This document shows positions 1 to 17,150 of a stretch of 64,000 nucleotides of DNA, piece after piece (position 1 is the first letter of the stretch; every line of letters starts with the position of its first letter). The notes beneath the pieces are model-generated. The model was given only the letters and a program-made list of their open reading frames with translations. It was not told where the DNA came from and searched no databases. The stretch is from Ptychodera flava (Eukaryota). The translations under genes were made by a program, and so were the position numbers. The stretch covers positions 31,706,780 to 31,770,779 of the forward strand of contig NC_091947.1 in the NCBI RefSeq assembly GCF_041260155.1. Reading direction: 5' to 3'.

Positions 1-1745
1 GTAACCACAAGTGCTACAGCCTTCATGTATGGTATGATGGGACACCTTATGACGCCACATATTGTACCTCATTAATTATGCGCATATCTAATTTTGAGCG
101 AGCCAATAGAGCTAGAGGTCTGATTTTGGTATATAGGGAAACTTAGCAAAACAATTTTTTCGACAAAATGTCACGTGACCTCGGTGACCTTTGACCTCAA
201 ATATACATATTTGTCCATAACTCAGTAACCACAAGTGCTACAGCCTTCATGTATGGTATGATGGGACACCTTATGACGCCACATATTGTACCTCATTAAT
301 TATGCGCATATCTAATTTTGAGCGAGCCAATAGAGCTAGAGGTCTGATTTTTGGTATATAGGGATAACTTAGCAAAACAATTTTTCGACAAAATGTCACG
401 TGACCTCGGTGACCTTTGACCTCAAATGTACATATTTGTCCATAACTCAGTAACCACAAGTGCTACAGCCTTCATGTATGGTATGATGGGACACCTTATG
501 ACGCCACATATTGTACCTCATTAATTATGCGCATATCTAATTTTGAGCGAGCCAATAGAGCTAGAGGTCTGATTTTTGGTATATAGGGATAACTTAGCAA
601 TACAATTTTTTTGACAAAATGTCACGTGACCTCGGTGACCTTTGACCTCAAATATACATATTTGTCCAGAACTCAGTAACCACAAGTGCTACAGCCTTCA
701 TGTATGGTATGATGGGACACCTTATGACGCCACATATTGTACCTCATTAATTATGTGCATATCTAATTTTGAGCGAGCCAATAGAGCTAGAGGTCTGATT
801 TTTGGTATATAGGGATAACTTAGCAATACAATTTTTTTGACAAAATGTCATGTGACCTTGGTGACCTTTGACCTCAAATATACATATTTGTCCATAACTC
901 AGTAACCACAAGTGCTACAGCCTTCATGTTTGGTATGATTGGACACCTTATGACGCCACATACTGTACCTCATTAATTATGCACATATCTAATTTTGAGC
1001 GAGCCAATAGAGCTAGAGGTCTGATTTTTGGTATATAGGGATAACTTAGCAAAACAATTTTTTGACAAAATGTCACGTGACCTCGGTGACCTTTGACCTC
1101 AAATATACATATTTTTCCATAACTCGGTAACCACAAGTGCTACACCCTTCATGTTTGGTATGATTGGACACCTTATGACGCCACATACTGTACCTCAATA
1201 ATTATGTGCATATCTCATTCTGAGCGAGCCAATAGAGCTGGATGTCTGATTTTTTGTATATAGGGATAACTATAGGAGAGAAATTTTTTGACCAAATGTC
1301 ATGTGATCTCGATGACCTTTTACCTAAAATATATGTAAAGTATATGTAATAAATAAGTAACCACAAGTGCTATGTCCTTTGTATTTAGTAGGATGGGAGA
1401 CCTTATGACAACACACGCTTTACCTCATTAATTATGTACACATCTAATTCTGGGCAAGCGAATAGAGCTAGAGATCTGATTTTTTGGCATATAGGGATTA
1501 ATTAGCAATATAATTTTTTTTTTCAAAATGTCATGTGACCTCGATGACCTTTGACCTTGATTATACATATATATGCATATTTCAGTAACCACAAGTTCTA
1601 TACCCTGCAATTTTGATAGGATATTAGACCTTAAGATGTCACATCTTGTACCTCATTTATAATGCGCATATGTATTTCTTGGCTGGTCAATACTGCTAGA
1701 GGTCTGATCTTTTTTCCCGATTTAGAACCATAACTTAGACATGCC
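1..1745 (+). repeat. Tandem satellite array, unit ~225 bp, ~7.7 copies; unit starts (motif gtaaccacaagtgcta) at 1, 225, 450, 676, 902, 1127, 1357, 1585, diverging toward the 3' end
   Basis: Direct reading: the same ~225-bp unit recurs head-to-tail, with the last two to three copies increasingly diverged. Related copies occur at 14500-14850 (opposite orientation) and 15975-16540. Confidence 0.9.
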
Positions 1746-2134
1746 TCATGTGTTTCAAATTGGGAACAACGACATAGACCTATGTGCCATAGATCTCAAC
1801 ATATACACTCCAGTGATACTTCTTAATGACCACATTTCCTACCCCATCAAGACTAATACTCCTATTACAAGTGGGGACTATGTCATTGTAAATGACTTGT
1901 TGAGTTAATGGTTGTATCACAGTATTCGATATATCTAATTCTGTATTTTTTCCATTTTATATTCTGAATAATTACATTAAACATATTTCACTGTCTCCAG
2001 TACATTTCATTTAAGTATTTTCACTTCATGCACTTTATCCCTTTCACACATGTTCAAATATCTGACCAGAGAACAAACACTAAATAGTCCAGGATGGGAG
2101 CTACAGTGTCATTGACGCTATTTTTCTCTTTCAG

Positions 2135-2297
2135 TATTGCAGTGTATGATTTAGGCGGTGGTACCTTTGATATTTCAGTCCTGGAGATTCAGAAAGGTGT
2201 CTTTGAAGTGAAGTCAACAAATGGTGATACCTTCCTGGGTGGTGAAGATTTTGATAATGTCCTTGTTACGTATCTAATCGATGAATTCAAGAGAGAT
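2135..2297 (+). CDS. HSPA9: HSPA9-like (mitochondrial HSP70/mortalin) coding exon: (V)[54 protein letters not shown]
   Basis: Acceptor tttcag at 2129-2134, donor gtaagt at 2298. The translation matches the conserved HSP70 substrate-binding-domain start and is in frame with the next exon. Confidence 0.85.
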
Positions 2298-3040
2298 GTA
2301 AGTATTTCATAACTCATTGGTTTCCATGACAATAATTGGAACATAAAATAGTGAACAACAATGGGAACAATCAGGAGAATAGGCCCTGTCTGAAGCAGTT
2401 GTCAAATCCATTTCAGGAGTTCTATTGCGACCCTTGAATCTTAAACCTTGAATTGGATACCCTAAGTTTGAAACATTTTATAGTTCCTTAGGGGTCCACT
2501 ATCTTGAATGTTTCCCAGTAGAGTATGTAGACAACATCAAAGGCAACGGATGATGCCCAAAACAAAATGTGGACCCTGTTTTCTGAGTGGTCTCGTGTTA
2601 AATCATGATTCTCCATGACCCAAAGTATGCAAATTCATGTCTGTTAACTTAAACTACCTTAGTAAATGTAACTCTGACATTTTGAAATGCCAACTAACAG
2701 CTCTTGACTAGACTACAACTGGTGTAACATGATGATACACAACTCAAATTGAATTCAGGGCTGGTAGTTTGAAACAAGAGTTCTTAAATTATAATTCAAT
2801 TAAATTTGACACTTTTGAACTGTATCCAAATGGAAAAATGATGAAAGAAATGATTGCCAATGACATTCCATACTATGTAAGCTAATGTTTCTCCCTAGTC
2901 ATGTTTGCAGCCTTTTAAATACTGTTTTACAGCTTGTAATTCATTAATTCCATTTCTTCTTTAGTCAACCAAGTTACAAATCAAATTTTGAAAAAGTTAA
3001 CATGGAAATTTCTGATTTTCTTTTTTTTTATCATTGACAG

Positions 3041-3133
3041 CAAGGTGTTGATTTGTCAAAAGACAACATGGCAGTTCAACGACTCCGAGAAGCAGCAGAG
3101 AAAGCAAAAATTGAATTGTCATCATCAATGCAG
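3041..3133 (+). CDS. HSPA9: HSPA9-like exon: [31 protein letters not shown]
   Basis: Acceptor ttgacag at 3034-3040, donor gtatta at 3134; phase 0, 31 codons, conserved HSP70 motif. Confidence 0.85.
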
Positions 3134-3491
3134 GTATTACCGTCAATCATACAATTCCATCACCATCATTTGGCTTTCTGTTTTCTCATTTCTTTTGACA
3201 TTGGGCAGTAGGCCAAAACTGTGTACAACACGTCTCCGCAATATCCGTGTTTGTGAGTTCATATCACCCAGTAACAAACAGAACATGTTCAGACTAAATT
3301 CCTTTCTCAATTTTTATTCAAAAAATGTCAAATATAGCTGATTATAAAGTCATTGCTCGCATATTAATCCTTAAATTGTTTTTAGCTCAATAGTCAGTTG
3401 ACTTCCGACCAAAAGTAGAAGTGTAGCTGATTAAAGTTCTACCTACTGTGTCATTAGTGTAACTTCCATTGTTTTTGTTATTCACTGACAG

Positions 3492-15949: not shown

Positions 15950-16645
15950 CGGACGGGCCCGTCCAGCGCCGTCCGGCGTGGGCAGAACCCTGGGTGTACC
16001 ACTTGTGGTTCCTGAGTTATGGACAAATATGTATATTTGAGGTCAAAGGTCACCGAGGTCACTTGACATTTTGTCAAAAACATTGTAGTGCTAAGTTATC
16101 CCTATATACCAAAAATCAGACCTCTAGCTCTATTTGCTTGCTCAAAATTAGATATGCACATAATTAATGAGGTACAATATGTGGCGTCATAAGGTGTCCC
16201 ATCATACCAAATATGAAGGGTGTAGCACTTGTGGTTACTGAGTTATGCACAAATATGTATATTTGAGGTCAAAGGTCACCAAAGTCACGTGACATTTTGT
16301 CCAAAAAAATTTTATTGCTAAGTTATCCATATATACAAAAAATCAGACCTCTAGCTCTATTGGCTCACTAAAAATTAGATATGCACATAATTAATGAGGT
16401 ACAATATGTGGTATCATAGGGTGTCCCATCATACCATATATGAAAGGTTTAGGACTTGTGGTTACTGAGTTATGGACAAATATGTATATTCGAGGTCAAA
16501 GGTCACCAAGGTCACGTGACATTTTGTCAAAGTGTCTGAGATATCTGCTTGAACGGATGGACTCATGGATGGACTCACGGACGGACATGACCCAATCTAA
16601 AATCCCCCTTGACTTTATCTTTGGGGACTAAAAACTGTGTAACTG
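15950..16645 (+). mobile_element. Satellite-carrying element: 5' 'ggcagaaccctgggtgtacc', then ~2.5 units of the 225-bp satellite (15990-16540), then a 3' tail with (ggatggactca/ggacgga)n and a hairpin ending ..ctttggggactaaaaa
   Basis: The same 5' motif in inverted orientation terminates the opposite array at ~14829-14850, and the same 3' terminus type recurs at 17100-17150. Together with the 14500-14850 array this forms head-to-head inverted arrays. Confidence 0.7.
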
Positions 16646-16697
16646 CATCCTAATGCAATATGAATATGATGAGAAACTAAATTTTTATTTTTCTTGG

Positions 16698-16875
16698 CCT
16701 TATACATGGGAGTCTATGGACTGCCTTATACATGGGAGTCTATGGACTGCCTTATACATGGGAGTCTATGGACTTCCTTATACATGGGAGTCTATGGACT
16801 GCCTTATACATGGGAGTCTATGGACTGCCTTATACATGGAAGTCTATGGACTGCCTTATACATGGGAGTCTATGG
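16698..16875 (+). repeat. 26-bp minisatellite (ccttatacatgggagtctatggactg) x ~6.8
   Basis: Direct reading; it produces the spurious repetitive ORFs 16653..17006 and 16694..16888. Confidence 0.9.
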
Positions 16876-16989
16876 AGGTGAAAACTAAAAAGTCCTCTAA
16901 CACGGCCAAATTTGATCGCATTGTGAAACAAATCGATGTGCATCTGTATGAGGTAGGGTACTATCCTTGTACCAAGTTTGAACGAAATC

Positions 16990-17150
16990 GCTCCAGGCGT
17001 CTCTGAGATATCTGCGTGAACGGACGGACGGACGCACGGACGCACACACGTACGCACGCACGCACGCACGGACGCACGCACGGACATGACCAAACCTATA
17101 AGTCCCCCCGGACGGTGTCCGTGGGGACTAAAAAGACAACATGGTAGATA
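16990..17150 (+). repeat. Second element 3' tail: gtctctgagatatctgcgtgaacgg(acgg/acgcacgg)n...catgaccaaacctataagtccccccggacggtgtccgtggggactaaaaag (terminal hairpin plus A-run)
   Basis: Paralogous to 16540-16645, with the same order of motifs; hairpin gtcccc..ggggac. Confidence 0.75.

What the first reader, a model, noticed from the sequence alone, without database searches (positions are those of the whole stretch)
1..17150. Satellite-carrying element family with a hairpin + 'ggggactaaaaa' 3' terminus; head-to-head arrays flank a PLPBP intron segment
The ~225-bp satellite appears as three blocks (1-1745 +; 14500-14850 -; 15990-16540 +). The + arrays are followed by a non-satellite tail that ends in a hairpin plus 'gggga cta(a)n' (1870-1880 caagtggggactatg; 16600-16645 ctttggggactaaaaa; 17100-17150 ccgtggggactaaaaag). 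The two inner arrays face each other across 14850-15975 and both start with ggcagaaccctgggtgtacc. This is the architecture of a transposon that carries and expands an internal satellite (as in the Helentron/Helitron-like elements of some invertebrates), not a simple centromeric satellite. One array lies inside an HSPA9 intron and two inside a PLPBP intron.
Basis: partly seen in the sequence, partly recalled or inferred. Interest (0 to 1): 0.6.

Follow-up and report, generated by a model that had tools for sequence, protein, structure and literature searches.

The report
Satellite-carrying non-autonomous Helentron transposons (HINEs)
The repeats are copies of small non-coding rolling-circle-type transposons (HINEs) that carry a short satellite array inside them and have enlarged introns of two housekeeping genes in the acorn worm Ptychodera flava. 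This kind of element is already well known from flies, mites and oysters, so it is a new example, not a new principle.

Summary
The anatomy it described is wrong.

- **One array, not two.** Blocks 2 and 3 lie in the same orientation. They are a single array split by a nested 1,151-bp hAT-like element. The "5' motif" ggcagaaccctgggtgtacc is that element's 12-bp inverted repeat plus its 8-bp target duplication.
- **Two different ends.** "ggggactaaaaa" is the 5' end read on the opposite strand: T5, subterminal repeat AGTCCCCAC, its inverted copy, then a (GTCC)n microsatellite. "caagtggggact" at 1870 is the 3' end: a complementary subterminal repeat, a stem-loop, then TTGTT.
- **Known architecture.** This matches HINEs, the non-autonomous Helentrons known as DINE-1 in flies and Cg_HINE in oysters.
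- **Two more families.** The window holds two further HINE families with 147-bp satellites. One copy has a paralogous empty site showing insertion into an A/T run with no target duplication.
- **Host.** The window is from Ptychodera flava (PLPBP 100% identical). Removing the elements shrinks the PLPBP intron from 3,438 bp to 578 bp, against about 565 bp in Glandiceps.
- **Gaps.** No autonomous partner could be looked for, and element C's 3' boundary is unresolved.

This is a new member of a known kind, of modest interest.

The parts
1..1711 (+). Element A: central array of the 226-bp satellite (7.6 monomers), cut by the window edge. The 5' part of the element lies outside the window.
   Evidence: TRF and BLAST of monomer 1. 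Monomers A1-A5 are 96-100% alike. The three nearest the 3' end fall to 88, 80 and 76%.
1712..1866 (+). Element A: non-repeated tail between the array and the right flank.
   Evidence: No homology to the tail of element B (global alignment z = -0.7).
1867..1901 (+). Element A right flank (3' end). It holds the 3' subterminal repeat GTGGGGACT (1871-1879), an inner stem-loop GTCATT/AATGAC (1882-1896), an outer stem ACAAGT/ACTTGT, and the terminus TTGTT (1897-1901).
   Evidence: Homologous to 14309-14275 on the other strand (82%, E 2e-4). Similarity stops exactly after TTGTT. Fold.
14275..14309 (-). Element B right flank (3' end). It holds GTGGGGACT, an inner stem-loop GTCATC/GATGAC (14280-14294) and the terminus TTGTT (rc of 14275-14279).
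   Evidence: The stem differs from A by a compensatory change (T:A in A, C:G in B).
14310..14505 (-). Element B tail. Its array-proximal 49 bp (14457-14505) are shared with element C (16903-16951).
   Evidence: BLAST 77.6% over 49 bp. Alignment z = 9.7.
14506..14841 (-). Element B satellite array, 3' part (1.5 monomers).
   Evidence: minus orientation relative to block 1, 85% and 94% identity.
14842..15992 (.). Nested non-autonomous hAT-like transposon (1,151 bp). It has perfect 12-bp terminal inverted repeats CAGGGTTCTGCC (14842-14853 and 15981-15992) and a perfect 8-bp target-site duplication GGTGTACC (14834-14841 and 15993-16000).
   Evidence: The neighbouring monomer carries the intact site once (14608-14615). 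The longest stop-free stretch is 67 aa. There is no other copy in the window.
15993..16531 (-). Element B satellite array, 5' part (about 2.4 monomers). It is in the same orientation as 14506-14841 and continues its phase.
16532..16634 (-). Element B left flank (5' end). Read on the - strand it runs: TTTTT (16634-16630), subterminal repeat AGTCCCCA, a degraded inverted copy, a GTCC-like microsatellite (16553-16586), and the core GCAGATATCTCAGA.
   Evidence: Homologous to element C's left flank (76-78%, E 1e-7 to 5e-11).. The hairpin is weak in this copy (z = -0.8).
16635..17134 (-). Element C: the same left flank as B, but no 226-bp satellite. It has TTTTT (17134-17130), AGTCCCCAC (rc of 17121-17129), the inverted copy GGGGGGACT (rc of 17101-17109) and a (GTCC/GTGC)n microsatellite (17020-17082). 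A 26-bp x 6.9 array lies at 16697-16876. No recognisable right flank was found; the element abuts B's 5' T-run.
   Evidence: Left-flank hairpin -13.5 kcal/mol, z = -4.8, 0 of 200 shuffles. The 3' boundary is not established.
32291..33834 (-). Family 2, copy 2a (1,544 bp). It has T6, a palindromic subterminal repeat GCTCACGTGT/ACACGTGAGC, a (GTCT)n microsatellite (33748-33790), a 147-bp satellite x 5.6 (32668-33500), a 3' subterminal repeat and the terminus CATATCTGGTC.
   Evidence: Hairpin -13 kcal/mol, z = -5.5.
47966..49589 (+). Family 2, copy 2b (1,624 bp, 7.1 monomers).
   Evidence: Flanks 87-94% identical to 2a. Termini aligned.
54436..55955 (-). Family 2, copy 2c (1,520 bp, 5.3 monomers), inserted into a family-3 element.
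62324..62331 (.). Paralogous empty site for copy 2c: an uninterrupted A8/T8 run in the second family-3 copy.
   Evidence: Flanks align on both sides at about 81% overall, microsatellite stretch included. The filled site has AA[element]AAAAAA, the empty site has AAAAAAAA, and nothing is duplicated.
53876..53978 (-). Family 2 left-flank fragment (2d): T6, a hairpin, a (GT)n/(GTCT) microsatellite and the core GTATCTCAAGAAC. It has no array and no right flank.
53979..54435 (-). Family 3, copy 3a, 3'-ward part: a related 147-bp satellite x 2.6 (53975-54357) plus spacer. It continues at 55956-56148 beyond the 2c insertion.
55956..56148 (-). Family 3, copy 3a, left flank: the core CTCAAATATCTTGAGAAC, an (ATGT)n microsatellite, the palindromic repeat CTATAGAC-TATA-GTCTATAG (56119-56138), TAGCTA and a T-run.
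62079..62547 (+). Family 3, copy 3b: left-flank hairpin at 62091-62110 and (TGTA)17.8 at 62153-62223. It is not interrupted.
14049..17486 (-). PLPBP intron 5 (3,438 bp), which holds elements B and C. These occupy 2,860 bp, including the nested hAT.
   Evidence: Splice sites read. Exons of P. flava PLPBP (P0001) mapped. The orthologous intron in Glandiceps talaboti is about 565 bp.

Best explanation
The window comes from the acorn worm Ptychodera flava. The three satellite blocks belong to two copies (A and B) of a non-autonomous Helentron-type (HLE2) rolling-circle transposon, a HINE. A third, variant copy (C) has the same left flank but a different internal repeat.

Read 5'->3', an element consists of:
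- a short T-run;
- a subterminal repeat (AGTCCCCAC) followed by its own inverted copy, which together form a hairpin;
- a (GTCC)n microsatellite and a short conserved core (GCAGATATCTCAGA);
- a central array of 226-bp repeats and a variable tail;
- the complementary 3' subterminal repeat (GTGGGGACT), a small stem-loop and the terminus TTGTT.

Inferred, not shown: the elements encode nothing and are moved in trans by the Rep/helicase(/endonuclease) of an autonomous Helentron. That enzyme would recognise the terminal repeats and hairpins, copy one strand, and insert it into T-rich DNA between two Ts without duplicating the target.

The internal array travels with the element, and its copy number changes afterwards by slippage or unequal exchange. 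Element B was later hit by an unrelated hAT-family cut-and-paste element, which split its array.
For: Shown:
1. Arrays and orientations.
2. The B and C left flanks are homologous, and so are the A and B right flanks, with similarity ending exactly at TTTTT and at TTGTT.
3. The 5' repeat AGTCCCCAC is the exact complement of the 3' repeat GTGGGGACT.
4. The left-flank hairpin is strong in C (z = -4.8). The 3' stem-loop is kept between A and B through a compensatory change.
5. The microsatellite is (GTCC/GTGC)n in family 1 and (GTCT)n in family 2, at the position and in the orientation reported for oyster Cg_HINEs (GTCY, GTCC, GTCK; PMC7492417).
6. Two more families in the window share the plan. 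Family 2 has three bounded copies with 87-94% identical flanks and 5.3-7.1 monomers.
7. Copy 2c has a paralogous empty site: insertion inside an A8/T8 run with nothing duplicated.
8. None of the bounded copies (B, 2a, 2b, 2c) has a target-site duplication.
9. The elements contain no credible ORF and the window has no Rep/helicase ORF. There are no tRNA or Rfam matches.
10. The feature list is the published definition of HINEs (PMC4067079; PMC11417382).
11. Removing B and C from the PLPBP intron leaves 578 bp, against about 565 bp in Glandiceps, whose locus has no such element.
12. Helentron proteins are known from another acorn worm, Saccoglossus (PMC4067079 supplements). P. flava PIF1-like proteins are among the best hits to that protein's helicase motifs.
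Against: - No autonomous partner was seen. The P. flava helicase hits show only PIF1 domains, with no Rep and no endonuclease.
- The P. flava genome could not be reached with these tools, so the family-1 consensus, copy number and target site rest on two or three copies.
- The subterminal repeats are 9-10 bp, shorter than the 11-15 bp reported elsewhere.
- B's left-flank hairpin is degraded (z = -0.8).
- Family 2 has no clear 3' stem-loop.
- C has no recognisable right flank.
- The tails of A and B are unrelated, so the family is mosaic.
- The transposition mechanism is inferred from the architecture and from what is known of Helitron-like elements. It is not demonstrated here.
Confidence: 0.85

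Rival explanations
1. A cut-and-paste MITE with terminal inverted repeats that carries tandem repeats. This is how pearl and DTC84 were first read in bivalves. A DDE transposase would move it.
For: Inverted repeats lie near both ends (AGTCCCCAC / GTGGGGACT). The elements are small, non-coding and intronic.
Against: None of the four bounded copies has a target-site duplication, nor does the 2c empty site. The repeats are subterminal and asymmetric, sitting 5 nt from one end and about 22 nt from the other. By contrast, the genuine cut-and-paste element nested in B shows a perfect 8-bp duplication.
Confidence: 0.05
2. A canonical Helitron (HLE1) whose 3' end is the hairpin followed by CTAA in ggggaCTAAaaa. 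This is what the first reader's '3' terminus' implies.
For: In element C a strong hairpin is followed directly by CTAA.
Against: In that orientation the other end reads AACAAGTC, not TC. CTAA is followed by three more element or host As, not by a host T. Families 2 and 3 share the plan but end GAGCAAAAAA and TAGCTAAAAA, without CTRR. The empty site shows insertion within an A/T run, not between A and T. Subterminal inverted repeats are the mark of HLE2, not HLE1 (PMC11417382).
Confidence: 0.03
3. A short retroposon (SINE-like) whose 3' end is the hairpin plus an A-tail. The satellite would be an internal expansion.
For: On one strand each element ends in a hairpin followed by A5-6, with a microsatellite nearby.
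Against: There are no target-site duplications. The A-run is short and fixed in length, and at the 2c empty site it is accounted for by the host A8 run. There is no tRNA-like or other RNA-family match. The opposite end has a complementary repeat and a stem-loop, which retroposons do not need.
Confidence: 0.03
4. Ordinary satellite DNA that happens to lie next to unrelated repeats. The flanks and arrays would be associated only by chance.
For: Element C carries the family-1 left flank without the 226-bp satellite, and 2d is a left flank without an array. So the modules can occur apart. Array A is cut by the window edge and could be long.
Against: Family 2 occurs three times as the same bounded unit of left flank, array and right flank at unrelated sites. 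One of these is a clean insertion relative to an empty paralog. The arrays are short and sit in introns of housekeeping genes.
Confidence: 0.03

Closest known systems
[quoted passage not shown] 2020, PMC7492417)
   Same: - The left flank holds a 5' subterminal repeat, a complementary inverted repeat and a tetranucleotide microsatellite of GTCY/GTCC/GTCK type.
- A variable spacer is followed by a central array of satellite-like repeats.
- The right flank holds a 3' subterminal repeat and a palindrome.
- Targets are T-rich and there is no target duplication.
- Families are mosaics of flanks and repeats.
- Copies lie in gene introns.
   Different: - The host phylum differs (Hemichordata, not Mollusca).
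- No sequence similarity was found. AGTCCCC occurs only once, by chance, inside an oyster satellite monomer, and the core motifs are absent from the paper's supplementary sequences.
- The subterminal repeats are 9-10 bp against 11-12 bp.
- Monomers are 226 and 147 bp.
DINE-1 of Drosophila and HINEs of mites and mosquitoes (Thomas et al. 2014, PMC4067079)
   Same: - The 5' subterminal inverted repeats lie a few nt from the terminus. Some are palindromic.
- A 3' stem-loop follows the 3' repeat.
- T-runs of variable length sit at the ends.
- Insertion is at TT with no target modification.
- A microsatellite and central repeats are present.
- There is no coding capacity.
   Different: - The 3' repeat lies about 22 nt from the end, not 38-60 nt.
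- There is no DINE-1 core sequence.
- No autonomous partner was identified here.
pearl (Crassostrea virginica, Anadara), DTC84 (Donax trunculus) and Tsp (sea urchin), listed as DINE-1-like in Table S1 of PMC4067079
   Same: They are small non-coding interspersed elements with internal tandem repeats. Tsp shows that such elements occur in Ambulacraria, the clade that includes hemichordates.
   Different: The comparison rests on the listing only.
hAT superfamily non-autonomous elements (applies only to the nested 14842-15992 insertion)
   Same: An 8-bp target-site duplication and short inverted repeats beginning CAGGG, which fits the hAT YARNG pattern. That pattern is from my own knowledge of the superfamily. 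The features themselves were tested.
   Different: There is no transposase, and no second copy in the window to confirm the family.

Membership tests
HINE / non-autonomous Helentron (HLE2) | No coding capacity | tested here: met
   The window has no Rep/helicase ORF. Only one ORF of at least 150 aa overlaps an element: 16830-17303, a low-complexity read-through of the microsatellite.
HINE / non-autonomous Helentron (HLE2) | Short subterminal inverted repeats: the 5' one a few nt from the end, the 3' one tens of nt from the end | tested here: met
   Family 1 has AGTCCCCAC after T5, and GTGGGGACT 22 nt from the 3' end. Family 2 has GCTCACGTGT after T6, and ACACGTGAGC 21 nt from the 3' end. At 9-11 bp they fall at the short end of the published 11-15 bp.
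HINE / non-autonomous Helentron (HLE2) | An inverted repeat complementary to the 5' subterminal repeat (or a palindromic repeat), forming a 5' hairpin | tested here: met
   Element C: -13.5 kcal/mol, z = -4.8. Copy 2a: -13.0 kcal/mol, z = -5.5. Family 3: CTATAGAC-TATA-GTCTATAG. The hairpin is degraded in B.
HINE / non-autonomous Helentron (HLE2) | A stem-loop between the 3' subterminal repeat and the 3' terminus | tested here: inconclusive
   Family 1 has a 6-bp stem in both copies, kept through a compensatory change, plus an outer 6-7 bp stem. The energies are not significant on their own (z = -0.9 and -1.8). Family 2 has none.
HINE / non-autonomous Helentron (HLE2) | A microsatellite in the left flank and central tandem repeats | tested here: met
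   The motif type (GTCC, GTCT) is as in Cg_HINE.
HINE / non-autonomous Helentron (HLE2) | Insertion into T-rich DNA (TT) without target-site duplication, with T-runs at the termini | tested here: met
   The paralogous empty site for 2c shows an A8/T8 run split 2 + 6 with no duplication. B, 2a, 2b and 2c have no duplication. No empty site was available for family 1.
HINE / non-autonomous Helentron (HLE2) | An autonomous Helentron in the same genome sharing the termini | not testable with these tools
   P. flava genomic DNA outside the window could not be fetched. Only PIF1-domain proteins were seen.
Canonical Helitron (HLE1) | A 5' TC, a 3' CTRR preceded by a hairpin, and insertion between A and T | tested here: not met
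   The ends read TTTTTAGTCC...GACTTGTT, or AACAAGTC...GGGGACTAAAAA on the other strand. Families 2 and 3 lack CTRR. The empty site lies inside an A/T run.
Cut-and-paste MITE | Terminal inverted repeats flanked by a target-site duplication of fixed length | tested here: not met
   No duplication in four bounded copies or at the empty site.
hAT (nested insertion only) | An 8-bp target-site duplication and short inverted repeats of YARNG type | tested here: met
   GGTGTACC on both sides, CAGGGTTCTGCC perfect 12-bp repeats, and the intact site in the neighbouring monomer.
Classical satellite DNA | Long homogeneous arrays in heterochromatin, not bounded by transposon ends | tested here: not met
   The arrays have 2.6-7.6 monomers, lie inside introns, and are bounded by conserved flanks. 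Array A is cut by the window edge, so its full length is unknown.

The most novel reading that the evidence does not exclude
The left-flank module may be a functional, anciently conserved part of the Helentron transposition signal, not incidental sequence. The module consists of a T-run, a palindromic subterminal repeat, a GTCY-type tetranucleotide microsatellite and an ATATCT-containing core.

The microsatellite has the same motif type, position and orientation in three unrelated-looking families of a hemichordate and in oyster Cg_HINEs. The three P. flava families also share the core just downstream of it. If this is constraint and not common descent or chance, the microsatellite itself would play a part in rolling-circle initiation or strand handling.
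Probability: 0.15. Interest if true: 0.5.

Novelty: new member of a known kind. Interest (0 to 1): 0.3.

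Why it matters
- **Origin of the arrays.** It explains where short satellite-like arrays inside acorn-worm genes come from. At least three HINE families are packed into 64 kb.
- **Intron growth.** Stacked insertions made one PLPBP intron about six times longer than its counterpart in Glandiceps, another enteropneust.
- **Wider host range.** The satellite-carrying Helentron pattern, documented in arthropods and bivalves, now extends to Hemichordata. 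I found no description of it in the searchable literature, including the P. flava chromosome-level genome paper.
- **Practical use.** The elements should be modelled as transposons in repeat libraries, not as centromeric satellites. The termini given here can seed a genome-wide search for the autonomous partner.

Tried and rejected
- **Bivalve origin.** I first assumed the window came from a bivalve, because the architecture recalls pearl, DTC84 and Cg_HINE. The PLPBP search showed it is Ptychodera flava.
- **Nested insertion.** I first read it as 14-bp repeats with a 4-bp TGTA duplication. The same junctions fit 12-bp repeats with a perfect 8-bp duplication, which is the hAT signature, so I re-read it that way.
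- **More P. flava DNA.** Four look-ups of P. flava proteins were not on record. Two metagenome scans, with the left-flank core and the monomer core, found nothing.
- **Autonomous partner.** The window has no Rep/helicase ORF. A query stitched from Saccoglossus Helentron helicase motifs, taken from a machine-read (OCR) supplement of PMC4067079, found P. flava PIF1-like proteins with no Rep or endonuclease domain. This is suggestive only.
- **Arrays inherited monomer by monomer.** The terminal monomers of A and B are not each other's closest relatives (69%), and the array ends are fuzzy. No inference was drawn.
- **Element C's right flank.** There is no GGGGACT or other homology. Its 3' boundary is unresolved.
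- **Oyster sequence motifs.** None were found in the Cg_HINE supplements.
- **Intron similarity to Glandiceps.** There is none.

Full report

Tandem Repeats Finder reports a 226-bp repeat at 1-1713 (7.6 copies, 89% matches) and at 15992-16528. A BLAST of the first monomer against the window adds 1.5 monomers at 14506-14839.

The same BLAST shows that both inner blocks are in minus orientation relative to block 1. Monomer phase runs straight across the gap: position 15 at 14839, position 14 resuming near 16000.

The quoted strings exist at 1867-1881, 16620-16634 and 17120-17135. GGCAGAACCCTGGG occurs exactly twice, inverted, at 14840-14853 and 15981-15994. None of 100 shuffles gave two matches.

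**2. What separates the inner blocks?**

The junctions read ...gaagGGTGTACC|CAGGGTTCTGCC ... GGCAGAACCCTG|GGTGTACCacttg. This gives a 1,151-bp insertion (14842-15992) with these features:
- perfect 12-bp terminal inverted repeats that begin CAGGG;
- a perfect 8-bp target-site duplication, GGTGTACC;
- no open frame longer than 67 aa.

The neighbouring monomer carries the undisturbed site once (14608-15). An 8-bp duplication with YARNG-type ends is the hAT signature; the pattern itself is from my own knowledge of that superfamily. It is not part of the satellite element.

**3. The two kinds of end**

Self-BLAST and end alignments give two separate homologies.

*First end.* 16532-16634 matches 16999-17134 at 76-78% (E 1e-7 to 5e-11). 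Similarity stops right after GGGGACTAAAAA.

*Second end.* 1867-1901 matches the reverse complement of 14275-14309 at 82% (E 2e-4). Similarity stops right after GACTTGTT.

Read on the strand of block 1, an element has this order:
- TTTTT;
- AGTCCCCAC and its inverted copy GGGGGGACT;
- a (GTCC/GTGC)n microsatellite;
- the core GCAGATATCTCAGA;
- the array of 226-bp repeats;
- a tail;
- GTGGGGACT;
- a stem-loop (GTCATY...RATGAC);
- TTGTT.

The 5' repeat is the exact complement of the 3' repeat. The 5' hairpin is strong in copy C (-13.5 kcal/mol, z = -4.8) and degraded in B (z = -0.8). The 3' stem is short, but A and B keep it through a compensatory change, and an outer stem ACAAGT/ACTTGT encloses it.

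This gives three elements:
- **A**: ...1-1901 on the + strand, with its 5' part outside the window.
- **B**: 16634->14275 on the - strand. It is 2,360 bp, or 1,201 bp without the hAT insertion and its duplication.
- **C**: 17134->about 16635 on the - strand.

C has B's left flank and the first 49 bp of B's tail (z = 9.7). It has no 226-bp satellite; a 26-bp x 6.9 array sits in its place. I could not find a right flank for it. The tails of A and B are unrelated (z = -0.7), so the family is mosaic.

**4. Independent support from the rest of the window**

The 147-bp arrays listed belong to two further families built on the same plan.

*Family 2* has three bounded copies and one fragment:
- 2a at 32291-33834;
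- 2b at 47966-49589;
- 2c at 54436-55955;
- a left-flank fragment, 2d, at 53876-53978.

Its flanks are 87-94% identical between copies, and the arrays hold 5.3-7.1 monomers. Its order is T6, a palindromic repeat GCTCACGTGT/ACACGTGAGC (z = -5.5), a (GTCT)n microsatellite, the array, the 3' repeat ACACGTGAGC, and 21 nt ending CATATCTGGTY.

*Family 3* has two copies: 3a at 53979-54435 plus 55956-56148, and 3b at 62079-62547. It has the palindrome CTATAGAC-TATA-GTCTATAG near a T-run and an (ATGT)n microsatellite.

All three families share an ATATCT-containing core just inside the microsatellite.

*The empty site.* Copy 2c sits inside 3a, and 3b is uninterrupted at that point.
- Empty: caaaaaatt-AAAAAAAA-tagtttctc (A8 at 62324-62331).
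- Filled: caaaaaattt-AA[AACCAGATATG...CACGTGAGC]AAAAAA-ctgtttctc.
- The flanks align on both sides.

The whole unit, array included, is therefore a discrete insertion into an A/T run with nothing duplicated. None of the bounded copies (B, 2a, 2b, 2c) has a target-site duplication.

**5. Host and gene context**

Probes recalled from memory located HSPA9 exons on the + strand (2136-7279) and PLPBP exons on the - strand. A protein assembled from the PLPBP exons is 100% identical to the NCBI Ptychodera flava protein. The next best hit is Glandiceps talaboti at 71%. The P. flava protein maps to exons from 24940 to 11999.

Array A lies upstream of the acceptor site at about 2132, so it is in an HSPA9 intron. 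B and C lie in PLPBP intron 5 (14049-17486, 3,438 bp). All three are in the sense orientation of their host gene.

The Glandiceps locus has the same gene order: HSP70, PLPBP, then a Fumble/pantothenate kinase gene. Its orthologous intron is about 565 bp and contains none of these elements. Removing B and C (2,860 bp) from the P. flava intron leaves 578 bp.

**6. Comparison with what is known**

Thomas et al. 2014 (PMC4067079) define HINEs, the non-autonomous Helentrons that include DINE-1, by these features:
- 12-15 bp subterminal inverted repeats, some of them palindromic, with the 5' one 2-4 nt from the end;
- a short palindrome near the 3' end;
- runs of Ts at the boundaries;
- insertion at TT with no target modification;
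- frequent microsatellites and central repeats.

Vojvoda Zeljko et al. 2020 (PMC7492417) describe oyster Cg_HINEs. Their left flank holds a 5' subterminal repeat, an inverted repeat and a microsatellite of GTCY/GTCC/GTCK type. A variable spacer and satellite-like central repeats follow. The right flank holds a 3' subterminal repeat and a palindrome. Targets are TT, there is no duplication, and copies lie in introns.

The P. flava elements match feature by feature, down to the microsatellite motif and its orientation. Three differences remain:
- the subterminal repeats are shorter (9-11 bp);
- the 3' repeat lies closer to the end;
- family 2 has no clear 3' stem-loop.

Canonical Helitron features (5' TC, 3' CTRR, A|T target) are not met.

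Helentron proteins have been reported from the acorn worm Saccoglossus, and the sea-urchin Tsp family is listed as DINE-1-like. I found no paper describing HINEs or satellites in P. flava. The chromosome-level genome paper does not mention Helitrons or satellites.

**7. Mechanism**

*Shown:*
- the architecture and the boundaries;
- one clean insertion with no target duplication;
- variable monomer number between copies;
- a later hAT insertion;
- near-identity of A's five inner monomers (96-100%) against 76-88% for those at the 3' edge, which fits expansion or homogenisation in place.

*Inferred:*
- mobilisation in trans by a Helentron Rep/helicase(/endonuclease) that recognises the subterminal repeats and hairpins;
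- single-strand rolling-circle ("peel-and-paste") transfer.

*Not found:* an autonomous partner. The window has no Rep/helicase ORF. P. flava proteins that best match Saccoglossus Helentron helicase motifs carry only PIF1 domains. P. flava DNA outside the window was not retrievable.

**8. Verdict**

These are new members (three families) of a known kind, in a phylum where I found no published description of them. Interest is modest (0.3).

The most novel reading still open is that the left-flank microsatellite and core are functionally constrained across phyla (probability about 0.15).

Noticed in passing
185-1557 (- strand) and 14655-16505 (+ strand): Almost every 226-bp monomer carries a perfect nuclear-receptor DR1 half-site pair, AGGTCAAAGGTCA. 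Ten of eleven copies are exact and one has a single mismatch, against 0.1 matches expected by chance in the window. The palindrome GGTCACGTGACC, which contains a CACGTG E-box, follows directly. Other parts of the monomer are equally conserved, so there is no sign of special constraint.
   Followed up: partly
51845-53851 (- strand), with 53876-53978: A GC-rich ORF (52-59% GC against about 36% background) is 100% identical to a P. flava 'uncharacterized protein' (P0121, 609 aa) with a C-terminal TatD DNase domain. The search returned only 4 homologs. A family-2 HINE left-flank fragment (hairpin, microsatellite, core) lies about 200 bp upstream of its ATG in the same orientation. It may contribute the 5' region of the gene.
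   Followed up: partly
32668-33500, 48340-49376, 54859-55631, 53975-54357: The satellites of HINE families 2 and 3 both have a 147-bp period and look distantly related (shared TTTCATCAA...TATCCCTA...AGGAA blocks). 147 bp is the nucleosome-core length, which may be coincidence.
   Followed up: no
16505-16560, 16972-17027, 33695-33750, 48066-48121, 55990-56050, 62222-62282: The three HINE families share a short core just inside the left-flank microsatellite: GCAGATATCTCAGA, CTCAATATCTCAAAAAC and CTCAAATATCTTGAGAAC. Fragment 2d has GTATCTCAAGAAC.
   Followed up: partly
9721-9858 and 10153-10293: Two arrays of a 16-bp unit (CACTTCGCACCAAAAC and roughly its reverse complement) lie in inverted orientation about 300 bp apart, between the 3' ends of HSPA9 and PLPBP. 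The arrangement looks like a foldback element.
   Followed up: no
25376-25425 versus 27801-27832 and 28293-28342: Hexamer microsatellites (TTCGTA)n and (AATACG)n, reverse complements of each other, lie 2.4-2.9 kb apart in PLPBP's upstream region. They may be the ends of another element.
   Followed up: no
10533-10581 and 38707-38755: The same 23-bp unit (ACATMATATAAATGCCCTAGGGC) is duplicated in tandem at two distant sites, which suggests another interspersed repeat family.
   Followed up: no
31436 (+), 22155 (-), 41292 (-), 24166 (-): Further sites have T5 followed at once by a 7-9 bp hairpin, resembling HINE left flanks, for example TTTTTGCTGAAACT...AGTTTCAGC at 31436. They could be more HINE families or chance matches.
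   Followed up: no
window 1-35500 and L001: The gene order HSPA9 -> <- PLPBP ... pantothenate kinase (Fumble domain; ORF 34968-35447) is conserved between P. flava and Glandiceps talaboti. In Glandiceps a 43-bp unit that includes the end of PLPBP exon 2 is tandemly repeated about 16 times in the following intron (L001 4352-5032).
   Followed up: partly
16830-17303 (- strand): A 157-aa 'ORF' runs through element C's microsatellite (VRASVRACVRTCVRPCVRP...). It is a low-complexity artefact, not a gene.
   Followed up: yes
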